Origin: a virus
DNA: 37,954 nucleotides
Virus genome (UHGV): UHGV-0114795
Direction: 5' to 3' (one strand)
The notes under the pieces were generated by a model. It made no database searches, was not told where the DNA came from, and worked only from the letters and a program-made list of their open reading frames with translations. The position numbers were made by a program, and so were the translations under genes. This document shows, one piece after another, positions 1,009 to 31,281 of the stretch. Position 1 is the first letter of the stretch; each line of letters begins with the position of its first letter.

Positions 1009-1083
1009 GTCCTCTTAGTTAAATGGATATAACGAGCCCCTCCTAAGGGCTAATTGCAGGTTCGATTCCTGCAGGGGACACCA
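1009..1083 (+). tRNA. argW: tRNA-Arg (anticodon CCU)
   Basis: 75 nt read from sequence: acceptor stem GTCCTCT/AGGGGAC, anticodon loop with CCT flanked by stem AGCCC/GGGCT, T-loop GGTTCGATTCC, 3' CCA encoded. Known prophage integration target. Confidence 0.9.
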
Positions 1084-5079: not shown

Positions 5080-5961
5080 TCAGTAGTTATGTACTGAAGG
5101 AGGTAATTCTTTATTCTTAAGTCTCATCCATGCGGAAAGATTCGTTGGTCCGTCTGGCTCATTAATATCAACATCTCGTGTGTGGTTTATTAAAACGTCT
5201 CTCGCCATTCCGATAACATACGAGAATTCATGACCGTAGTCGTAGCATCTGCCGGAATAGTTCGATTGAATTTGTTTTAGCGCCGGATACAGTTCGCGGA
5301 ATAATGCCTGTGAGCGGTTGGCATAATCCCATAACCATACAAGGTTGTTTGCTTCTTTTGCAGAAAGCTCGTTGGTTTTCTTCTCTTGTTTGCCAATGAA
5401 CTCACCTTCAAGCACTACCCTGTGGATGTACTCTACGGCCAGCGGGATTTGTTCAATTGAAAGTTCATCAATGCTGTCAATACCAAAACGCTGATGAACC
5501 ATATTGTATGCATCGTCATAGCGAAGTCCTTTCTTTCCTACCAGCATGTTTACTGCATCGCGTAGCGGCGTTCTTTCCTCAACAGTGGTTTTCTTGCCTT
5601 TCACATACTCGCCATGTTTGCGAATTGAAGGTAGAACTTCTGCTGTTACCCACTTGCGGAATTTGTGCGGGACCGAACCTTTATTGACAGCATCGCGGCA
5701 GCGCAGAACCAATGTATACATACCTGATTCGCTAACAATGCTTAGATTCTGCTCACCACCAAGGGTGTAACTTAAAGTTACTCCCTTTTCATCGTCATCA
5801 AGTGCAGTAAGCGCCTTGCGTGAGTTAGTCAGGGTTAAAGCATCACAAACATCTTTTGCTACAAACCACGGCTCACCGCATTTGTTGATGACGCGGATTT
5901 CACTGTCGCCGAATTTGAAGATGGTGAAATCGTTTTGTGCCTTTGCTATACTTTTCATGTC
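5080..5961 (-). CDS. ant: Antirepressor (Bro-N/KilA-N N-terminal domain), P22 Ant-like
   Basis: Position downstream of arc in immI operon; N-terminal [25 protein letters not shown] pattern typical of Bro-N antirepressors. Start chosen at ATG 5961 (AGGAAA upstream) rather than the ORF-track start at 6024. Confidence 0.75.
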
Positions 5962-6026
5962 AATATTTCCTAATCCGATTTGTTGATACCGAAGCCCTGA
6001 CTGTTCCCGCAGTTGGGGCTTCAACT

Positions 6027-28535: not shown

Positions 28536-28551
28536 GACTTCCCCCTCCCCC

Positions 28552-28608: not shown

Positions 28609-29985
28609 TCATACGTCAGCCCCTTGTGCATATCGTCTGCCACGCGCAGCAGGTGCATTTGATGTTGTGCAAATCTGTCTGGCTTCATCCTGGTCACATG
28701 CAACAAAGTGTCCGTTGCAGAACCGCTGGTAAACCGTACCAAGCGAGCCAAAACGGTTTTTCGTCACAATGATTTCAGCAAATGGCGCGGCGCTACTGTT
28801 CTCGTCATATACAGCTTCCCGATAGAGCATGATGATTGAGTCTGCGTCCTGCTCAATGCTTCCTGAATCACGCAAATCTGCGTTTGTCGGGCGTTTGTTT
28901 GGTCGCTTCTCAACATCGCGCGAAAGCTGACTCAGGGAGATAACCGGTGTTTTCAGGTCTTTCGCCATCGCCTTCAGGCTTCCGGAGATGTGAGCAATTG
29001 CGAGGTCGTTGCGGTCTGCTTTCGGCTTCTCAATCAGGCCAAGATAATCCGCCATGATGAGTGAGAGGTTTGGATTTTCCTGTTTGTGCCGTTCTGCGAT
29101 TGAGCGTATTTCTTCGACCGATAACCGCGAGGCATCGACTACCCATACATCCAAATCTGCAAGCTGACTCATGCCGTTAGCAACGCGCGCCCAGCCTTCG
29201 TCATCCATCGCTGCAGGATTTCGCAGTACGCTAACCGACATCCTCCCGGCGTTGGCAATGCTTCGCTCTGCAATCTGCAATGCGCTCATTTCCATTGAGA
29301 AAATCAATACCCCGCGCCGGACGTCAGAACCAGGAATAGTGCGGCTTGCAACGCCTTCGGCAATCTTCAGCGCCAGCTCGGTTTTCCCCATACCAGGACG
29401 AGCAGCGATTATCACCAGGTCTTCCGCGTTCATCCCTCCGGTGATGGCATCAAGTTCTTCGATTCCGGTCTTCAGGGTATCTGACTCTTCTCCGTTCCTC
29501 AGACGCCTGTCAAGCGTGTCAGTGTAGTCAGTAATGATTTCCCCTAACCGTACAGGTTTTACCTCGTCACGGGGCTTTCTGATGGCTGAGAGACGCTTTA
29601 CAAGCTCATCCATCGCCTGACTCGATGCGTCGATGGTTCCGCTCTGAATTGGTTCACGCATTTCATCCATGATTTCCAGCACCAGACGGCGGTGATAGTT
29701 ATCCGCGACCATTCCGGCATATCCCTTCAGGTTTGCGGCGCTCGGGCAGTTTTTGCTGGTCATCAGGATTGACGTGAAATGCTCATCTCCGCACGCCTCG
29801 GCAACCATCAGTGCGTCGATTAGGTTTCTGTTTCTCGCCTGCTTGCGGATAACCTCGAAGGCTTTCCGGTAGAGCGGAATTGAAAACGCTTCCGGCTCCA
29901 GCGTTGCCAGAACGTCGCTGGCGGTTGGTGTTAATCCACCAATCAGCAGGCCACCGATAACGCTCGCTTCGATATCCTGTCTCAT
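28609..29985 (-). CDS. Replicative DNA helicase, DnaB-like (P22 gene 12 type)
   Basis: 458 aa with Walker A (GMGKT) and DnaB C-terminal domain features; overlaps initiator gene end. Confidence 0.85.
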
Positions 29986-30929
29986 GCAATCCCCCTGTCT
30001 GCAAACTTCCCTTCCCGAACTCCCGTTAACGAATCTTCTCTCAGCAAGTAATCAAAATCAGCCGTCCAGCCCGTGTCGTTGTCTCCGAAGTAAAACGGCT
30101 TGGCCTGATGCACAAACGCCCTGACATACGCTCTGAAACCGTCCACGTTTGGCGTTTTCAGTTGCGGGATGATTTTCTTCAGGCGGCGTTTGCGTTTCTC
30201 GTTGACCGCAACAGCGTGTGGAAGTCTGTCACCGACTTCGGTGTTGTAGGCGTTCAGGAAGGATTCGTAGTCGATTCGTTCTGCCTTGCGACGTTCAGGT
30301 TTAACCTGCCCATCGCCTCCCCCATTGGGGGGTAGGGGGGTATTATTTATATTCTTGTTAATACCTTCTTGTTCATGATGTGCGGTTGTTTGTGCGGCTT
30401 CATGTGCGCTTTCATGTGCGGCATGTGCGCTGAAAGCCGCGCCATTACTGGCTTCGTCATGTGCGGCATCATGTGCGGTTGTTTGTGCGGCTTCATGTGC
30501 GGGTGAATTGTCCATTTTTTGAGCGTATTCATGGTAATTTGTGATGGTGATCACACGACCTTTTTGCTTCTCTCCATCAATGGAGATCATCCCCTCTTTC
30601 ACAAAAACCTGAAGCATCCGCTCAACCTGATCACGGCTTGCCGGCTTGCCATGCCTGTCGCATAACTGAAGACCTAAATCAGCTGCTGTCACAACCAGTT
30701 GACCGGGTTGCAGATGCCATTCATGACCTTTGAAATTCGCTTTGTATGGCTTTCTGGCGGCATTCAGGAGAAGGTTTTCCCACAGGGTGCGAAGATAAAC
30801 ATCTTTCGCCCATGACTGTTTCAGAATGCTCCGGTACAACGGAATGTAACCAGTTTTCTGGTTCTCCATCCTGTTGCTCCTGCGCTCGTGTGCGGCGCTG
30901 AAATCGTAGATTTTTGCTGTATTGCTCAT
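29982..30929 (-). CDS. Replication initiator, O-like N-terminal domain (P22 gene 18 type), containing the origin iterons
   Basis: 315 aa; N-terminus [10 protein letters not shown]... typical of phage replication protein O; central His/Ala-rich segment encoded by the iteron DNA. Confidence 0.8.
30373..30505. repeat. Origin-type iterons (about 9 copies of ATGTGCGG/C at roughly 10-12 bp spacing) with flanking AT-rich and G-rich blocks
   Basis: Read directly: 31-bp direct repeat ATGTGCGGTTGTTTGTGCGGCTTCATGTGCG at about 30378 and 30471; additional TGTGCG units between; AT-rich 30341..30365; CCCCCATTGGGGGGTAGGGGGG at 30319..30340. Confidence 0.75.
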
Positions 30930-30931
30930 AA

Positions 30932-31204
30932 CTACCTGCCTTGACGAAAGACCTTAAGAACATCGTTAAACTGACTTACGGATATGTCTTCTTTGAGCAG
31001 CTTTTCCAGAAATGCGTTTGGAATGAACGTATATCCCTCCTCTTTTGGTAGAGACGGGAGCAACGCCCTCGCCTCAGCCTTCAGAAGCTCAGTTCTGGCA
31101 ACTTTCACAAAAGAGATTTGAGTTCTTTCATCAATGGAACGAAGGAAGCGCAAGCGCTTGGCTTCTTTGTGTGTATCAGGTGGATTAAAGTCTTTGTTTC
31201 GCAT
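30932..31204 (-). CDS. Hypothetical protein (90 aa) between cII and replication initiator
   Basis: ATG at 31204 with GAGGT upstream (MRNKDFNPPDTHKEAKRLRF...); ORF-track version 30932..31513 is an extension through cII in another frame. Confidence 0.5.
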   Translation of the reverse strand: MRNKDFNPPDTHKEAKRLRFLRSIDERTQISFVKVARTELLKAEARALLPSLPKEEGYTFIPNAFLEKLLKEDISVSQFNDVLKVFRQGR

Positions 31205-31215
31205 ATAATTACCTC

Positions 31216-31281
31216 GTTGGATGTTGTTAAAATTCCATTTGTATTTGATCAGAACGCTCGGTTGCCGCCGGGCGTTTTTTA
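31216..31281 (+). ncRNA. oop-like antisense RNA (antisense to 3' end of cII)
   Basis: 3' portion (CCATTTGTATTTGATCAGAACGCTCGGTTGCCGCCGGGCGTTTTTTATT) nearly identical to remembered lambda oop RNA 3' end, with terminator hairpin GCUCGG-UUGCCG-CCGGGC plus U6; candidate -10 TATAAT at 31204..31209. The 5' end is inferred. Confidence 0.55.

What the first reader, a model, noticed from the sequence alone, without database searches (positions are those of the whole stretch)
30317..30510. Replication origin embedded in the initiator gene: about nine ATGTGCGG iterons, a 31-bp direct repeat, and flanking G-rich/AT-rich blocks
The repeats are read directly from the sequence and sit at helical-repeat spacing inside the O-like initiator gene, where they encode a His/Ala-rich linker, as in lambda ori. 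The unusual CCCCCATTGGGGGGTAGGGGGG block directly abutting the AT-rich stretch is not something I recognise from lambda and may be a structural element of this origin.
Basis: seen in the sequence. Interest (0 to 1): 0.45.

Follow-up and report, generated by a model that had tools for sequence, protein, structure and literature searches.

The report
Phage replication origin inside initiator gene
This is almost certainly the replication origin of a P22-like E. coli prophage, lying inside its own initiator gene as in phage lambda; it is an ordinary kind of feature, though this version has not been described or tested in anything I could find.

Summary
The + strand carries nine copies of [A/T]TGTGCG[G/C] at 30378-30502, an exact 31-bp direct repeat, a 22%-GC stretch, and a C5/G6/G6 block. 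All lie in the middle of a minus-strand O-like initiator gene (29982-30929), followed by a DnaB-family helicase gene.

Forty-four homologous genes from Enterobacterales show a fixed layout: two arrays of 3 or 4 units with a strict 12-nt period, a fixed 33-nt spacer, then the AT-rich stretch. The core CGCACA is about 99% invariant, including two synonymous codon positions. The amino-acid-determining first position of each unit is nearly random. Selection therefore acts on the DNA, not only on the His/Ala linker.

The core changes with the initiator's N-terminal domain (CGCAC with Asp80, CG[C/A]GC with His80, CGAT in 46%-identical relatives). It stays the same when the right half and C-terminal domain are swapped, including for lambda-type ones.

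The ninth copy sits in the spacer and is not conserved, so the core layout is 4+4. The spacing is 12 bp, not 10.5.

The "unusual" G-rich block lies at the right end of P22's annotated origin and is also in HK97. It travels with the AT-rich stretch.

Verdict: a new member of a known kind, of modest interest. Nothing was tested experimentally.

The parts
29982..30929 (-). O-like replication initiator gene (315 aa). The true start may instead be the MENQK ATG at 30869.
   Evidence: ORF. Pfam Phage_rep_O match at aa 20-132, 56.8 bits. 98.5-98.8% DNA identity to the 'replication protein O' genes of phages HF4s, CUS-3 and JEP4 and many Stx2a phages.
30507..30869 (-). Coding region of the N-terminal domain (MENQK...QKMDN), a predicted winged helix and the presumed iteron-binding module.
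   Evidence: Pfam match. Found with the same repeats but different C-terminal domains in 44 loci. A low-confidence AF2 model gives H-beta-H-H-beta-hairpin topology. Residues 62 and 80 split perfectly with iteron subtype.
30456..30503 (-). Iteron array A: four 12-nt units. Sense strand: CCCGCACATGAA GCCGCACAAACA ACCGCACATGAT GCCGCACATGAC.
   Evidence: Coordinates. Unit conservation across 21 loci and 134 units.
30423..30455 (-). 33-nt inter-array spacer (sense GAAGCCAGTAATGGCGCGGCTTTCAGCGCACAT). It contains the conserved dyad GCCAgtaaTGGC. Its last 9 nt hold the non-conserved ninth repeat copy (+ strand 30423-30430).
   Evidence: Fixed length of 33 nt in all 44 loci, with partly conserved sequence. 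The ninth copy is disrupted (GCGTACAT, 'SVH') in most close relatives.
30375..30422 (-). Iteron array B, next to the AT-rich stretch: four 12-nt units. Sense strand: GCCGCACATGAA AGCGCACATGAA GCCGCACAAACA ACCGCACATCAT.
   Evidence: Units B2-B4 and A1-A3 make up the exact 31-bp direct repeat (30378-30408 and 30471-30501).
30341..30374 (.). AT-rich stretch, the presumed DNA unwinding element (sense GAACAAGAAGGTATTAACAAGAATATAAATAATA).
   Evidence: GC 22.5%. Least stable duplex segment of the replication module and second in the window. Invariant in 64 distinct close alleles while the flanks vary. CATGAACAA is invariant in all 44 diverse loci, including third codon positions.
30316..30340 (.). 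C/G block (sense CCCCCCTACCCCCCAATGGGGGAGG; + strand CCTCCCCCATTGGGGGGTAGGGGGG). It encodes the T-P-L-P-P-N-G-G-G hinge and contains the inverted repeat CCCCC-N3-4-GGGGG.
   Evidence: The same block lies at the right end of the P22 record's rep_origin and is present in HK97, Omnitron, S.Inf 5-2 and L213. It belongs to the most conserved DNA segment between P22 gene 18 and HK97 gene 54. It uses the rarest Pro and Gly codons of the window.
29982..30315 (-). Coding region of the C-terminal domain, of the P22 gp18 / HK97 gp54 type. Presumed to recruit the phage helicase.
   Evidence: 100% amino-acid identity to the HK97 gp54 C-terminus and about 60% to P22 gp18. No similarity to the lambda O C-terminal domain.
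28609..29985 (-). DnaB-family replicative helicase gene (458 aa). Its start overlaps the initiator stop by 4 nt.
   Evidence: Pfam DnaB_C 261.6 bits and DnaB 49.5 bits. NCBIfam TIGR03600 phage_DnaB 312.9 bits, below its 498.65-bit cut-off.

Best explanation
The segment 30316-30503 is the replication origin of a P22-like lambdoid prophage. It lies inside the gene for its own initiator, which is read on the minus strand.

Proposed mechanism:
1. The N-terminal winged-helix domain of the O-like protein binds the 8-bp core (C/G)CGCACAT. The core is repeated head-to-tail every 12 bp, in two arrays of four separated by a 33-bp spacer.
2. The resulting nucleoprotein complex destabilises the adjacent 34-bp AT-rich stretch.
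3. The gp18-type C-terminal domain brings the phage's own DnaB-family helicase, encoded by the next gene, to the opened DNA. A lambda-type P protein is not involved.
4. The C5..C5..G5 block directly after the AT-rich stretch is the conserved right edge of this origin type, shared with P22 and HK97. It encodes the Pro/Gly hinge between the two protein domains. It probably also acts as a G+C-rich, hairpin-capable boundary of the unwinding element.

Shown here: the anatomy, selection on the iteron core at the DNA level, its co-variation with the N-domain, its independence from the C-terminal module, and conservation of the AT-rich stretch and block.

Inferred only: binding, unwinding, helicase recruitment, and any DNA-level role of the block.
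For: Anatomy.

Module swaps:
- Klebsiella phage 2b and Yersinia phage 210.17 have the same N-domain (86% and 75% identity) and the same CCGCACA repeats. These are followed by lambda's AT-rich stretch, its palindrome GAGAATTCTGGCGAATCCTCTGAC, a lambda-type C-domain and a different partner gene: 'DNA replication protein P' in the Yersinia phage, an unspecified 'DNA replication protein' in the Klebsiella phage.
- HK97 gp54 has the same C-domain, AT-rich stretch and block, but a different N-domain and different repeats.

Forty-four loci from different species: all have 3+3 or 4+4 units with a 12-nt period, a 33-nt spacer, and CATGAACAA followed by AT-rich sequence.

Selection on the DNA:
- In 134 units, the third-codon positions idx2 (C, 134/134) and idx5 (A, 133/134) are essentially invariant. 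The first-codon position idx0 carries only 0.28 bits.
- Four-fold degenerate sites at conserved residues of the N-domain carry a mean of 0.58 bits.
- Among 64 close alleles the repeat region is the most polymorphic part of the gene, yet core positions have one third the diversity of non-core positions: 0.017 against 0.049.

Co-variation with the N-domain:
- 21 loci have CGCAC. In the 19 of them scored, residue 80 is Asp in all 19.
- 23 loci have CG[C/A]GC, with His80 in 23/23. Residue 62 also splits perfectly.
- Both residues sit at the starts of predicted HTH helices (low confidence).
- Relatives with a 46%-identical N-domain keep the layout but use a CGAT(G/A)A core.

Support from records and papers:
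- The P22 record annotates rep_origin inside gene 18, with the same block at its right end.
- Papers place lambdoid origins in the O gene and note different iterons in P22 and L gene 18 (PMC7466680, PMC8022706).
Against: - No experiment on this origin type was found in the searched literature. The P22 annotation itself is 'by similarity to lambda'.
- The units are short direct repeats with a 12-bp period, unlike lambda's 19-bp dyad-symmetric iterons. The binding mode cannot simply be transferred from lambda.
- The Asp/His split could be phylogenetic hitch-hiking. Amino-acid identity is 0.76-0.82 within subtypes against 0.72 between them.
- The structure model is low confidence (pLDDT 57.7), and no solved homologue exists.
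- For the block, predicted hairpins of -5 to -8 kcal/mol are not better than dinucleotide-preserving shuffles for the window's own sequence (z -0.6 to -0.95).
- One relative with a P22-like C-domain lacks the block (L207).
- The T-P-L-P-P peptide is itself conserved, so protein-level selection explains part of the block's conservation.
Confidence: 0.8

Rival explanations
1. The repeats are only a by-product of a low-complexity His/Ala-rich protein linker made by replication slippage. They have no role as DNA sites, and the origin is not here.
For: The units are in frame, have a 4-codon period and encode a repetitive A-H-x-x peptide. Unit number varies between relatives, 3+3 or 4+4. The region is the most polymorphic part of the gene among close alleles.
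Against: Conservation ignores codon structure. Synonymous third positions of the core are 99-100% invariant, while the amino-acid-determining first position is nearly random and the peptide varies (P/A/T/S/G - A - H/Q/L). The control is 0.58 bits at four-fold sites elsewhere in the gene. A synonymous GCA/GCG switch is fixed across all units of a locus and tracks residue 80 of the N-domain. The repeats directly abut the AT-rich stretch, as lambda's iterons do.
Confidence: 0.04
2. The repeats are real initiator-binding sites, but they serve mainly for control (autoregulation, handcuffing or copy control, or exclusion of related phages). Replication starts elsewhere in the early-right region.
For: Iteron arrays in plasmids also act in copy control. 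Extra lambda origin copies inhibit phage growth (titles and abstracts of PMC3349717 and PMC4488673). Two separate arrays with a conserved spacer could pair or loop.
Against: The arrays are always followed directly by the least stable duplex segment of the module. In some relatives the adjoining AT-rich stretch and palindrome are lambda's own. No second repeat cluster was seen near the gene in 30200-30620.
Confidence: 0.08
3. This rival concerns the G-rich block only. The block has no DNA-level function. It is kept because it encodes a Pro/Gly hinge (T-P-L-P-P-x-G), and because a shared stretch at a module junction is spread by recombination between lambdoid phages.
For: The peptide TPLPP / TPLTP / NPLNPP is conserved across contexts. 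Crossovers lie inside the block: L163 and L117 carry the HK97 version downstream of CUS-3-type iterons. L207 has a P22-like C-domain without the block. Hairpin energies are not better than shuffles for the window's own sequence.
Against: - The G5 run is kept through different codons and different amino acids: AAT GGG GGA, AAA GGG GGA, GAG GGG GAA, ATG GGG GAC.
- The synonymous sites inside the C5/G5 runs (4 sites) do not vary across window, HK97, P22, S.Inf 5-2 and Omnitron; MS2 LVA, whose C runs are shorter, is the exception. The five synonymous sites just outside the runs all vary. This is my own count: small, and not corrected for shared ancestry.
- The block uses CCC (9% of Pro codons) and GGG (13% of Gly codons).
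- Every other right-half class also carries an inverted repeat at this position, some with compensatory changes.
Confidence: 0.45

Closest known systems
ori-lambda within gene O of phage lambda (and the six-iteron origins of Stx phages 933W and P27)
   Same: The origin lies in the middle of the initiator gene. Repeats sit directly upstream of an AT-rich unwinding stretch and encode the interdomain linker. The N-terminal domain belongs to Pfam Phage_rep_O. The N-terminal specificity module and the C-terminal recruitment module are exchangeable.
   Different: Lambda has four 18-19-bp dyad-symmetric iterons; here there are 4+4 direct 8-bp cores with a 12-bp period and a 33-bp spacer. Only a weak N-terminal match to lambda O was found by BLASTP (23.9 bits, E 0.004, over the first ~65 residues), and the C-domains are unrelated. 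The partner is a DnaB-family helicase, not lambda P. Lambda has a 28-bp palindrome where this origin has the C5..C5..G5 block.
P22 ori within gene 18 (rep_origin 32840-32984 in NC_002371), with the gene 12 helicase
   Same: The C-terminal domain type matches (about 60% identity). The downstream gene is a 458-aa DnaB-family helicase. The order is AT-rich stretch followed by ACCCCC-TTA-CCCCC-N-GGGGG.
   Different: P22 has a lambda-like N-domain and four repeats of about 20 bp (..TCGGTAAAAC..). The window has an unrelated-looking N-domain subtype and CGCACA units. The P22 origin annotation is itself by similarity.
HK97 gp54/gp55 (also called Eru2A/Eru2B in Stx phages, PMC8044961)
   Same: The C-terminal 110 residues of the initiator are 100% identical, and the AT-rich/C-G block is the same type. 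Both have a 458-aa DnaB-family helicase as the downstream partner; I did not align the two helicases.
   Different: The N-domain and repeats differ (TTAGCTAA-like). The Eru paper describes no origin ('iteron' has 0 occurrences).
Phage L gene 18, with six imprecise 11-bp repeats (TGTCCAACGGA) proposed as its origin (PMC8022706)
   Same: Short direct repeats inside an O-like gene of a P22-like phage with a DnaB-type helicase. The origin is inferred from sequence only.
   Different: The repeat sequence, number and initiator differ. I did not compare the L gene itself.
O genes of Klebsiella phages 2b LV-2017 and Mulock and Yersinia phage vB_YenM_210.17
   Same: They share the N-domain (75-86% identity), the CCGCACA units, the 12-nt period and the two-array layout.
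   Different: Their right half is lambda-type (AT-rich stretch, palindrome, C-domain) and the downstream partner gene differs: 'DNA replication protein P' in the Yersinia phage, an unspecified 'DNA replication protein' in Klebsiella phage 2b. There is no C5/G5 block.

Membership tests
Lambdoid intragenic origin (ori-lambda kind) | The origin lies inside the initiator gene, between the N- and C-terminal domain coding parts. | tested here: met
   The repeats and AT-rich stretch occupy gene positions 427-589 of 948, after the Phage_rep_O match at aa 20-132.
Lambdoid intragenic origin (ori-lambda kind) | The initiator has a Phage_rep_O-type N-terminal DNA-binding domain. | tested here: met
   PF04492, 56.8 bits against a cut-off of 28.7.
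Lambdoid intragenic origin (ori-lambda kind) | A cluster of repeated initiator sites is followed directly by an AT-rich unwinding stretch. | tested here: met
   The same order is seen in all 44 homologous loci.
Lambdoid intragenic origin (ori-lambda kind) | The iterons are units of about 19 bp with internal dyad symmetry (lambda proper). | tested here: not met
   The units are 8-bp direct-repeat cores with a 12-bp period. No inverted repeat was found within the arrays.
Lambdoid intragenic origin (ori-lambda kind) | The initiator binds the repeats, and the segment supports initiator-dependent replication. | not testable with these tools
   Only indirect evidence: synonymous-site conservation and co-variation with the N-domain.
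Lambdoid intragenic origin (ori-lambda kind) | A lambda-type C-terminal domain works with a P-type helicase loader. | tested here: not met
   The C-domain is unrelated to that of lambda O. The next gene is a DnaB-family helicase.
P22 gene 18 / gene 12 replication module | A gp18-type C-terminal domain. | tested here: met
   61% identity to the P22 gp18 C-terminus in the alignment. tblastn gives 60.2% to P22 and 100% to HK97 gp54.
P22 gene 18 / gene 12 replication module | A DnaB-family helicase gene lies immediately downstream. | tested here: met
   28609-29985, 458 aa, overlapping the initiator stop. DnaB_C 261.6 bits.
P22 gene 18 / gene 12 replication module | The AT-rich stretch is followed by a C5-N3-C5-N3-4-G5 block, as at the right end of P22's annotated rep_origin. 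| tested here: met
P22 gene 18 / gene 12 replication module | The P22-type N-domain and its four repeats of about 20 bp. | tested here: not met
   The N-domain and the repeats are different.
Iteron-type plasmid origins (RK2, pPS10, F; a comparison of how it works, not of membership) | Direct repeats of 17-22 bp spaced about two helical turns apart, bound by a winged-helix Rep protein. | tested here: not met
   The period is 12 bp and the core 8 bp. No family relation to plasmid Rep proteins was found. The plasmid features listed come from my own knowledge and were not checked here.

The most novel reading that the evidence does not exclude
This origin may work through a different nucleoprotein geometry from lambda's O-some. 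Single winged-helix domains would bind head-to-tail every 12 bp in two four-site arrays, bridged across a conserved dyad-containing 33-bp spacer. A simple natural specificity code would apply: Asp80 reads CGC-A-C and His80 reads CG(C/A)-G-C. The C5-N3-4-G5 inverted repeat after the AT-rich stretch would be a DNA signal that bounds unwinding or marks the helicase-loading site. It would be one member of a general rule that every lambdoid origin right half carries an inverted repeat at that position.
Probability: 0.3. Interest if true: 0.5.

Novelty: new member of a known kind. Interest (0 to 1): 0.3.

Why it matters
Lambdoid origins have been studied biochemically almost only for lambda-type O proteins. 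This origin type is carried by CUS-3-, HF4s- and Kapi1-like phages and by about fifty sequenced Stx2a-converting phages. It is also present in 272 of 5,426 complete E. coli genomes.

Stx phage replication drives toxin output, yet the papers that classify Stx replication modules describe no origin for the DnaB-helicase types. A defined origin would therefore be useful, with cores, arrays, an unwinding stretch and a candidate specificity residue.

The two-subtype Asp/His and A/G pattern is a ready-made test case for how initiator and origin co-evolve, and for which co-resident prophages can cross-activate or exclude one another. None of this changes the basic picture. It is a variation on the textbook lambda arrangement.

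Tried and rejected
- Searching IMG/VR with the N-domain and C-domain alignments returned only near-identical E. coli alleles. These were useful for polymorphism analysis but not for deep comparison. The one-genome-per-species collection gave the needed diversity.
- My first automatic unit caller was too strict and miscounted units with G at the second position. I replaced it with a frame-anchored count.
- One script had a gene-length bug, fixed.
- AF2 on the single sequence of the N-domain gave only pLDDT 57.7. I used it for secondary-structure order only, ran no fold search on it, and did not spend a large database search to build an alignment.
- No solved-structure homologue was found, and no NCBIfam family matched the initiator.
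- The hairpin of the C/G block folds at -5 to -8 kcal/mol but is not better than dinucleotide-preserving shuffles for the window's own sequence. I do not claim thermodynamic support.
- A scan for perfect-stem inverted repeats is insensitive to the imperfect lambda-type palindrome.
- No Rfam family lies in the region, and no sigma-70-like promoter was found in 29900-31700. The 'terminator' reported at 30392-30409 is just the repeats.
- DnaA boxes were rejected by eye. The core shares only CACA with TTATNCACA, and the G-subtype lacks even that.
- The CUS-3 genome paper (PMC1951898) is not held.
- I found no paper describing this origin. The library lacks most subscription journals, including Backhaus and Petri 1984 on P22 genes 18 and 12.
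Full report
**What the window is.** The window is a mosaic P22-like (Lederbergvirus-type) E. coli phage or prophage.
- It carries a sar antisense RNA at 5960-6026 and a tRNA-Arg(CCU) at 1009-1083.
- Its best overall matches are phages Louie, HZ41 and IME10, at about 96% identity over about half of the query.
- The early-right operon runs on the minus strand. The order is cI (31925-32626, + strand), a CII-family gene (31227-31580, Pfam Phage_CII), an O-like gene (29982-30929), and a DnaB-family helicase gene (28609-29985) whose start overlaps the O stop.
- The O-like gene is 98.5-98.8% identical to the 'replication protein O' genes of phages HF4s, CUS-3, JEP4 and about fifty Stx2a-converting phages.

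**The observation.**
- ATGTGCGG occurs exactly five times in the window, all on the + strand within 30378-30502. Four one-mismatch copies lie interleaved with them. Spacings are 12, 12, 12, 9, 36, 12, 12, 12 bp. About 0.1 such matches would be expected in 125 bp.
- The 31-bp direct repeat (30378-30408 and 30471-30501) is exact.
- GC falls to 22.5% at 30340-30379. This is the least stable duplex segment of the replication module and the second least stable of the whole window.
- The block CCCCC-ATT-GGGGGG-TA-GGGGGG (30319-30340) holds the only two runs of six or more G or C in 38 kb.
- On the sense (minus) strand the repeats read xCC-GCA-CAT-xxx and encode the His/Ala-rich stretch [37 protein letters not shown].

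**Module swaps show the repeats belong to the N-terminal domain.**
- Klebsiella phage 2b LV-2017 and Yersinia phage vB_YenM_210.17 have the same N-domain (86% and 75% identity) and the same CCGCACA repeats. After the repeats come lambda's own AT-rich stretch, lambda's palindrome (GAGAATTCTGGCGAATCCTCTGAC), a lambda-type C-terminal domain and a different partner gene ('DNA replication protein P' in the Yersinia phage, an unspecified 'DNA replication protein' in the Klebsiella phage).
- Conversely, HK97 gp54 has a C-terminal domain identical to the window's, and the same kind of AT-rich stretch and C/G block. Its N-domain and repeats are different.
- The repeats therefore sit exactly where lambda's iterons sit, and they are inherited with the DNA-binding half of the initiator.

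**A fixed architecture across 44 loci.** A scan of one genome per bacterial species gave 47 loci across Enterobacterales with 67-87% N-domain identity. Of these, 41 were usable; with the window and the two phages that makes 44.
- Every locus has in-frame 12-nt units arranged 3+3 (25 loci) or 4+4 (19 loci).
- Every locus has a spacer of exactly 33 nt, then an invariant CATGAACAA, then AT-rich sequence.
- By this layout the window has 4+4 units: array A at 30456-30503 and array B at 30375-30422.
- The ninth copy (30423-30430, the one with the 9-bp offset) lies at the end of the spacer. It reads GCGTACAT in most close relatives and is not part of the conserved design.
- The 31-bp repeat is simply units A1-A3 against B2-B4. 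In many loci the two arrays resemble each other more than they resemble their counterparts in other species, which suggests concerted evolution.

**Selection acts on the DNA, not only on the peptide.**
- In the 21 loci of the CGCAC subtype (134 units), positions 2-7 of the unit (C-G-C-A-C-A) are 97-100% invariant.
- This includes two third-codon positions: C in 134/134 and A in 133/134. The first codon position, which sets the amino acid (P, A, T, S or G), carries only 0.28 bits.
- As a control, four-fold degenerate third positions at conserved residues in the N-domain of the same loci carry a mean of 0.58 bits (21 codons).
- Among 64 distinct near-identical alleles from IMG/VR, the repeat region is the most polymorphic part of the gene. 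Core positions still have one third the nucleotide diversity of non-core positions (0.017 against 0.049). The AT-rich stretch is invariant.

**The core co-varies with the initiator.**
- Twenty-three loci use N[C/G]CG[C/A]GCA[T/A] instead, with G at unit position 5 in 166/168 units.
- Two N-domain columns split perfectly with this. Residue 80 (numbered from MENQK) is Asp in 19/19 A-type loci and His in 23/23 G-type loci. Residue 62 is A/P against S/T.
- A low-confidence AF2 model (pLDDT 57.7) gives the order helix, strands, helix 62-68, helix 79-91, beta-hairpin. That would put both residues at the starts of the helix-turn-helix helices. This is weak support, and shared ancestry is not excluded.
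- More distant relatives (46-47% N-domain identity: Salmonella phage S.Inf 5-2, Enterobacter phage ENT1, a Sodalis MAG) were also examined. S.Inf 5-2 keeps the 12-nt period, the two arrays and even the spacer sequence, but uses a CGAT(G/A)A core. The Sodalis MAG uses a CSGRTACA-like core. For ENT1 I looked only at the protein, whose linker is repetitive.

**The G-rich block.** It is not in lambda, but it is not unusual.
- The P22 record annotates rep_origin 32840-32984 inside gene 18. That feature spans four repeats and an AT-rich stretch, and it ends in ACCCCC-TTA-CCCCC-TAAA-GGGGG.
- HK97, Citrobacter phage Omnitron, S.Inf 5-2 and locus L213 carry the same design.
- Between P22 gene 18 and HK97 gene 54, the AT-rich stretch plus block is 90-93% identical, against 40-60% for most of the rest of the gene (a short stretch near the 5' end also reaches 83-87%).

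Evidence that the runs themselves matter:
- The G5 run is kept through different codons and amino acids: AAT GGG GGA, AAA GGG GGA, GAG GGG GAA, ATG GGG GAC.
- By my own count, synonymous sites inside the C5/G5 runs do not vary across window, HK97, P22, S.Inf 5-2 and Omnitron, while those just outside all vary. MS2 LVA, which has shorter C runs, is the exception. The count is small and uncorrected for shared ancestry.
- The block uses CCC and GGG, the rarest Pro (9%) and Gly (13%) codons in the window.

Evidence against a DNA role:
- The peptide T-P-L-P-P is itself conserved.
- Hairpin energies are no better than shuffles for the window's own sequence.
- L207 has a P22-like C-domain without the block.
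- Crossovers fall inside the block (L163, L117). Its spread may therefore owe something to recombination at a module junction.

A broader pattern supports a DNA element at this position. Each class of origin right half has an inverted repeat just after, or within, the AT-rich stretch:
- the lambda-type palindrome, with apparently compensatory variants (L187 GACATTC/GAATGTC, L208 TGATTC/GAATCA);
- ATCTAATAAT-aa-ATTATTAGAT in Xenorhabdus;
- ATTAAATAC-taac-GTATTTAAT in Citrobacter;
- C5-N3-4-G5 here.

**Mechanism.** I consider an origin of the lambda kind most likely (about 0.8). N-domains bind the eight cores, the complex opens the AT-rich stretch, and the gp18-type C-domain recruits the phage's DnaB-family helicase. 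The 12-bp period is not the helical repeat. Successive sites are rotated by about 50 degrees, so the complex is more likely a spiral head-to-tail array than lambda's set of dimers on dyad sites. Binding, unwinding and recruitment are all inferred.

**Comparison and novelty.**
- Papers establish that lambdoid origins lie in the O gene and consist of iterons plus an AT-rich tract (PMC7466680).
- P22 gene 18 has four repeats of about 20 bp, and phage L gene 18 has six 11-bp repeats proposed as its origin (PMC8022706).
- O-type specificity modules are exchanged among P22-like phages (PMC2629481, PMC10307801).
- The paper that classifies Stx phage replication modules describes the HK97-like Eru2A with a DnaB helicase, but no origin (PMC8044961).
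- I found no description of this particular origin. The searched library omits most subscription journals.
- It is a new member of a known kind, present in 272 of 5,426 complete E. coli genomes. Interest is modest.

Noticed in passing
window 30423-30455 (minus-strand sense GAAGCCAGTAATGGCGCGGCTTTCAGCGCACAT): The spacer between the two iteron arrays is exactly 33 nt in all 44 loci. It carries a partly conserved dyad, GCCAgtaaTGGC, followed by CGCGG. It is kept even in Salmonella phage S.Inf 5-2, whose iteron core is different. No known site was recognised, and its role is unexplained.
   Followed up: partly
L008 and L035 (IMG/VR loci), at the position equivalent to window 30335-30340: Two of 80 near-identical alleles have a 1-nt deletion in the first C6 run of the C/G block. 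This shifts the frame and gives a 205-aa initiator without the C-terminal domain. It could be a homopolymer sequencing error, a decayed prophage, or a slippage switch.
   Followed up: no
L163 and L117 (IMG/VR loci), block region: The HK97 version of the block (ACCCCCTTACCCCCTAACGGGGGC, or a hybrid of the two versions) is joined to CUS-3-type iterons. Recombination junctions between origin types therefore fall inside the block.
   Followed up: partly
L187, L208, L180, L207 and the Xenorhabdus and Citrobacter loci (L177, L188 and others), 15-60 nt after the last iteron: Every class of origin right half has an inverted repeat after or within the AT-rich stretch. The lambda-type palindrome shows apparently compensatory variants (GACATTC/GAATGTC, TGATTC/GAATCA). 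This suggests a general DNA element at that position.
   Followed up: partly
window 30630-30632 (codon for Asp80 counted from MENQK; residue 100 of the 315-aa ORF) and 30684-30686 (codon for residue 62): N-domain residue 80 is Asp in all 19 scored loci with CGCAC iterons and His in all 23 loci with CG[C/A]GC iterons. Residue 62 splits the same way (A/P against S/T). These are candidate specificity-determining residues.
   Followed up: partly
window 30870-30929: The first 20 codons ([20 protein letters not shown]) resemble the N-terminus of lambda O (MTNTAKILNFGRGNFAGQERN). The Klebsiella phage homologue is annotated as starting at MENQK. The true start codon (30929 or 30869) is uncertain.
   Followed up: no
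window 31251-31278 (+) and about 30932-31204 (-): A strong terminator-like hairpin on the + strand overlaps the 3' end of the cII-like gene. I recognise it from memory as lambda's oop terminator (GCTCGGTTGCCGCCGGGCGTTTTTTATT). Between cII and O lies an ORF of about 90 aa, in a stretch left unannotated in the CUS-3 record.
   Followed up: no
window 5960-6026 (+) and 1009-1083 (+): A sar antisense RNA (Rfam RF00262, 71.6 bits) marks a P22-type immI/ant region. A tRNA-Arg(CCU) gene near the left end of the window suggests a prophage integrated next to a tRNA gene.
   Followed up: no
window 28541-28551: Two CCCCC runs separated by one base lie between the helicase gene and the ninB-like ORF. This is the only other place in the window with paired C5 runs.
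   Followed up: no
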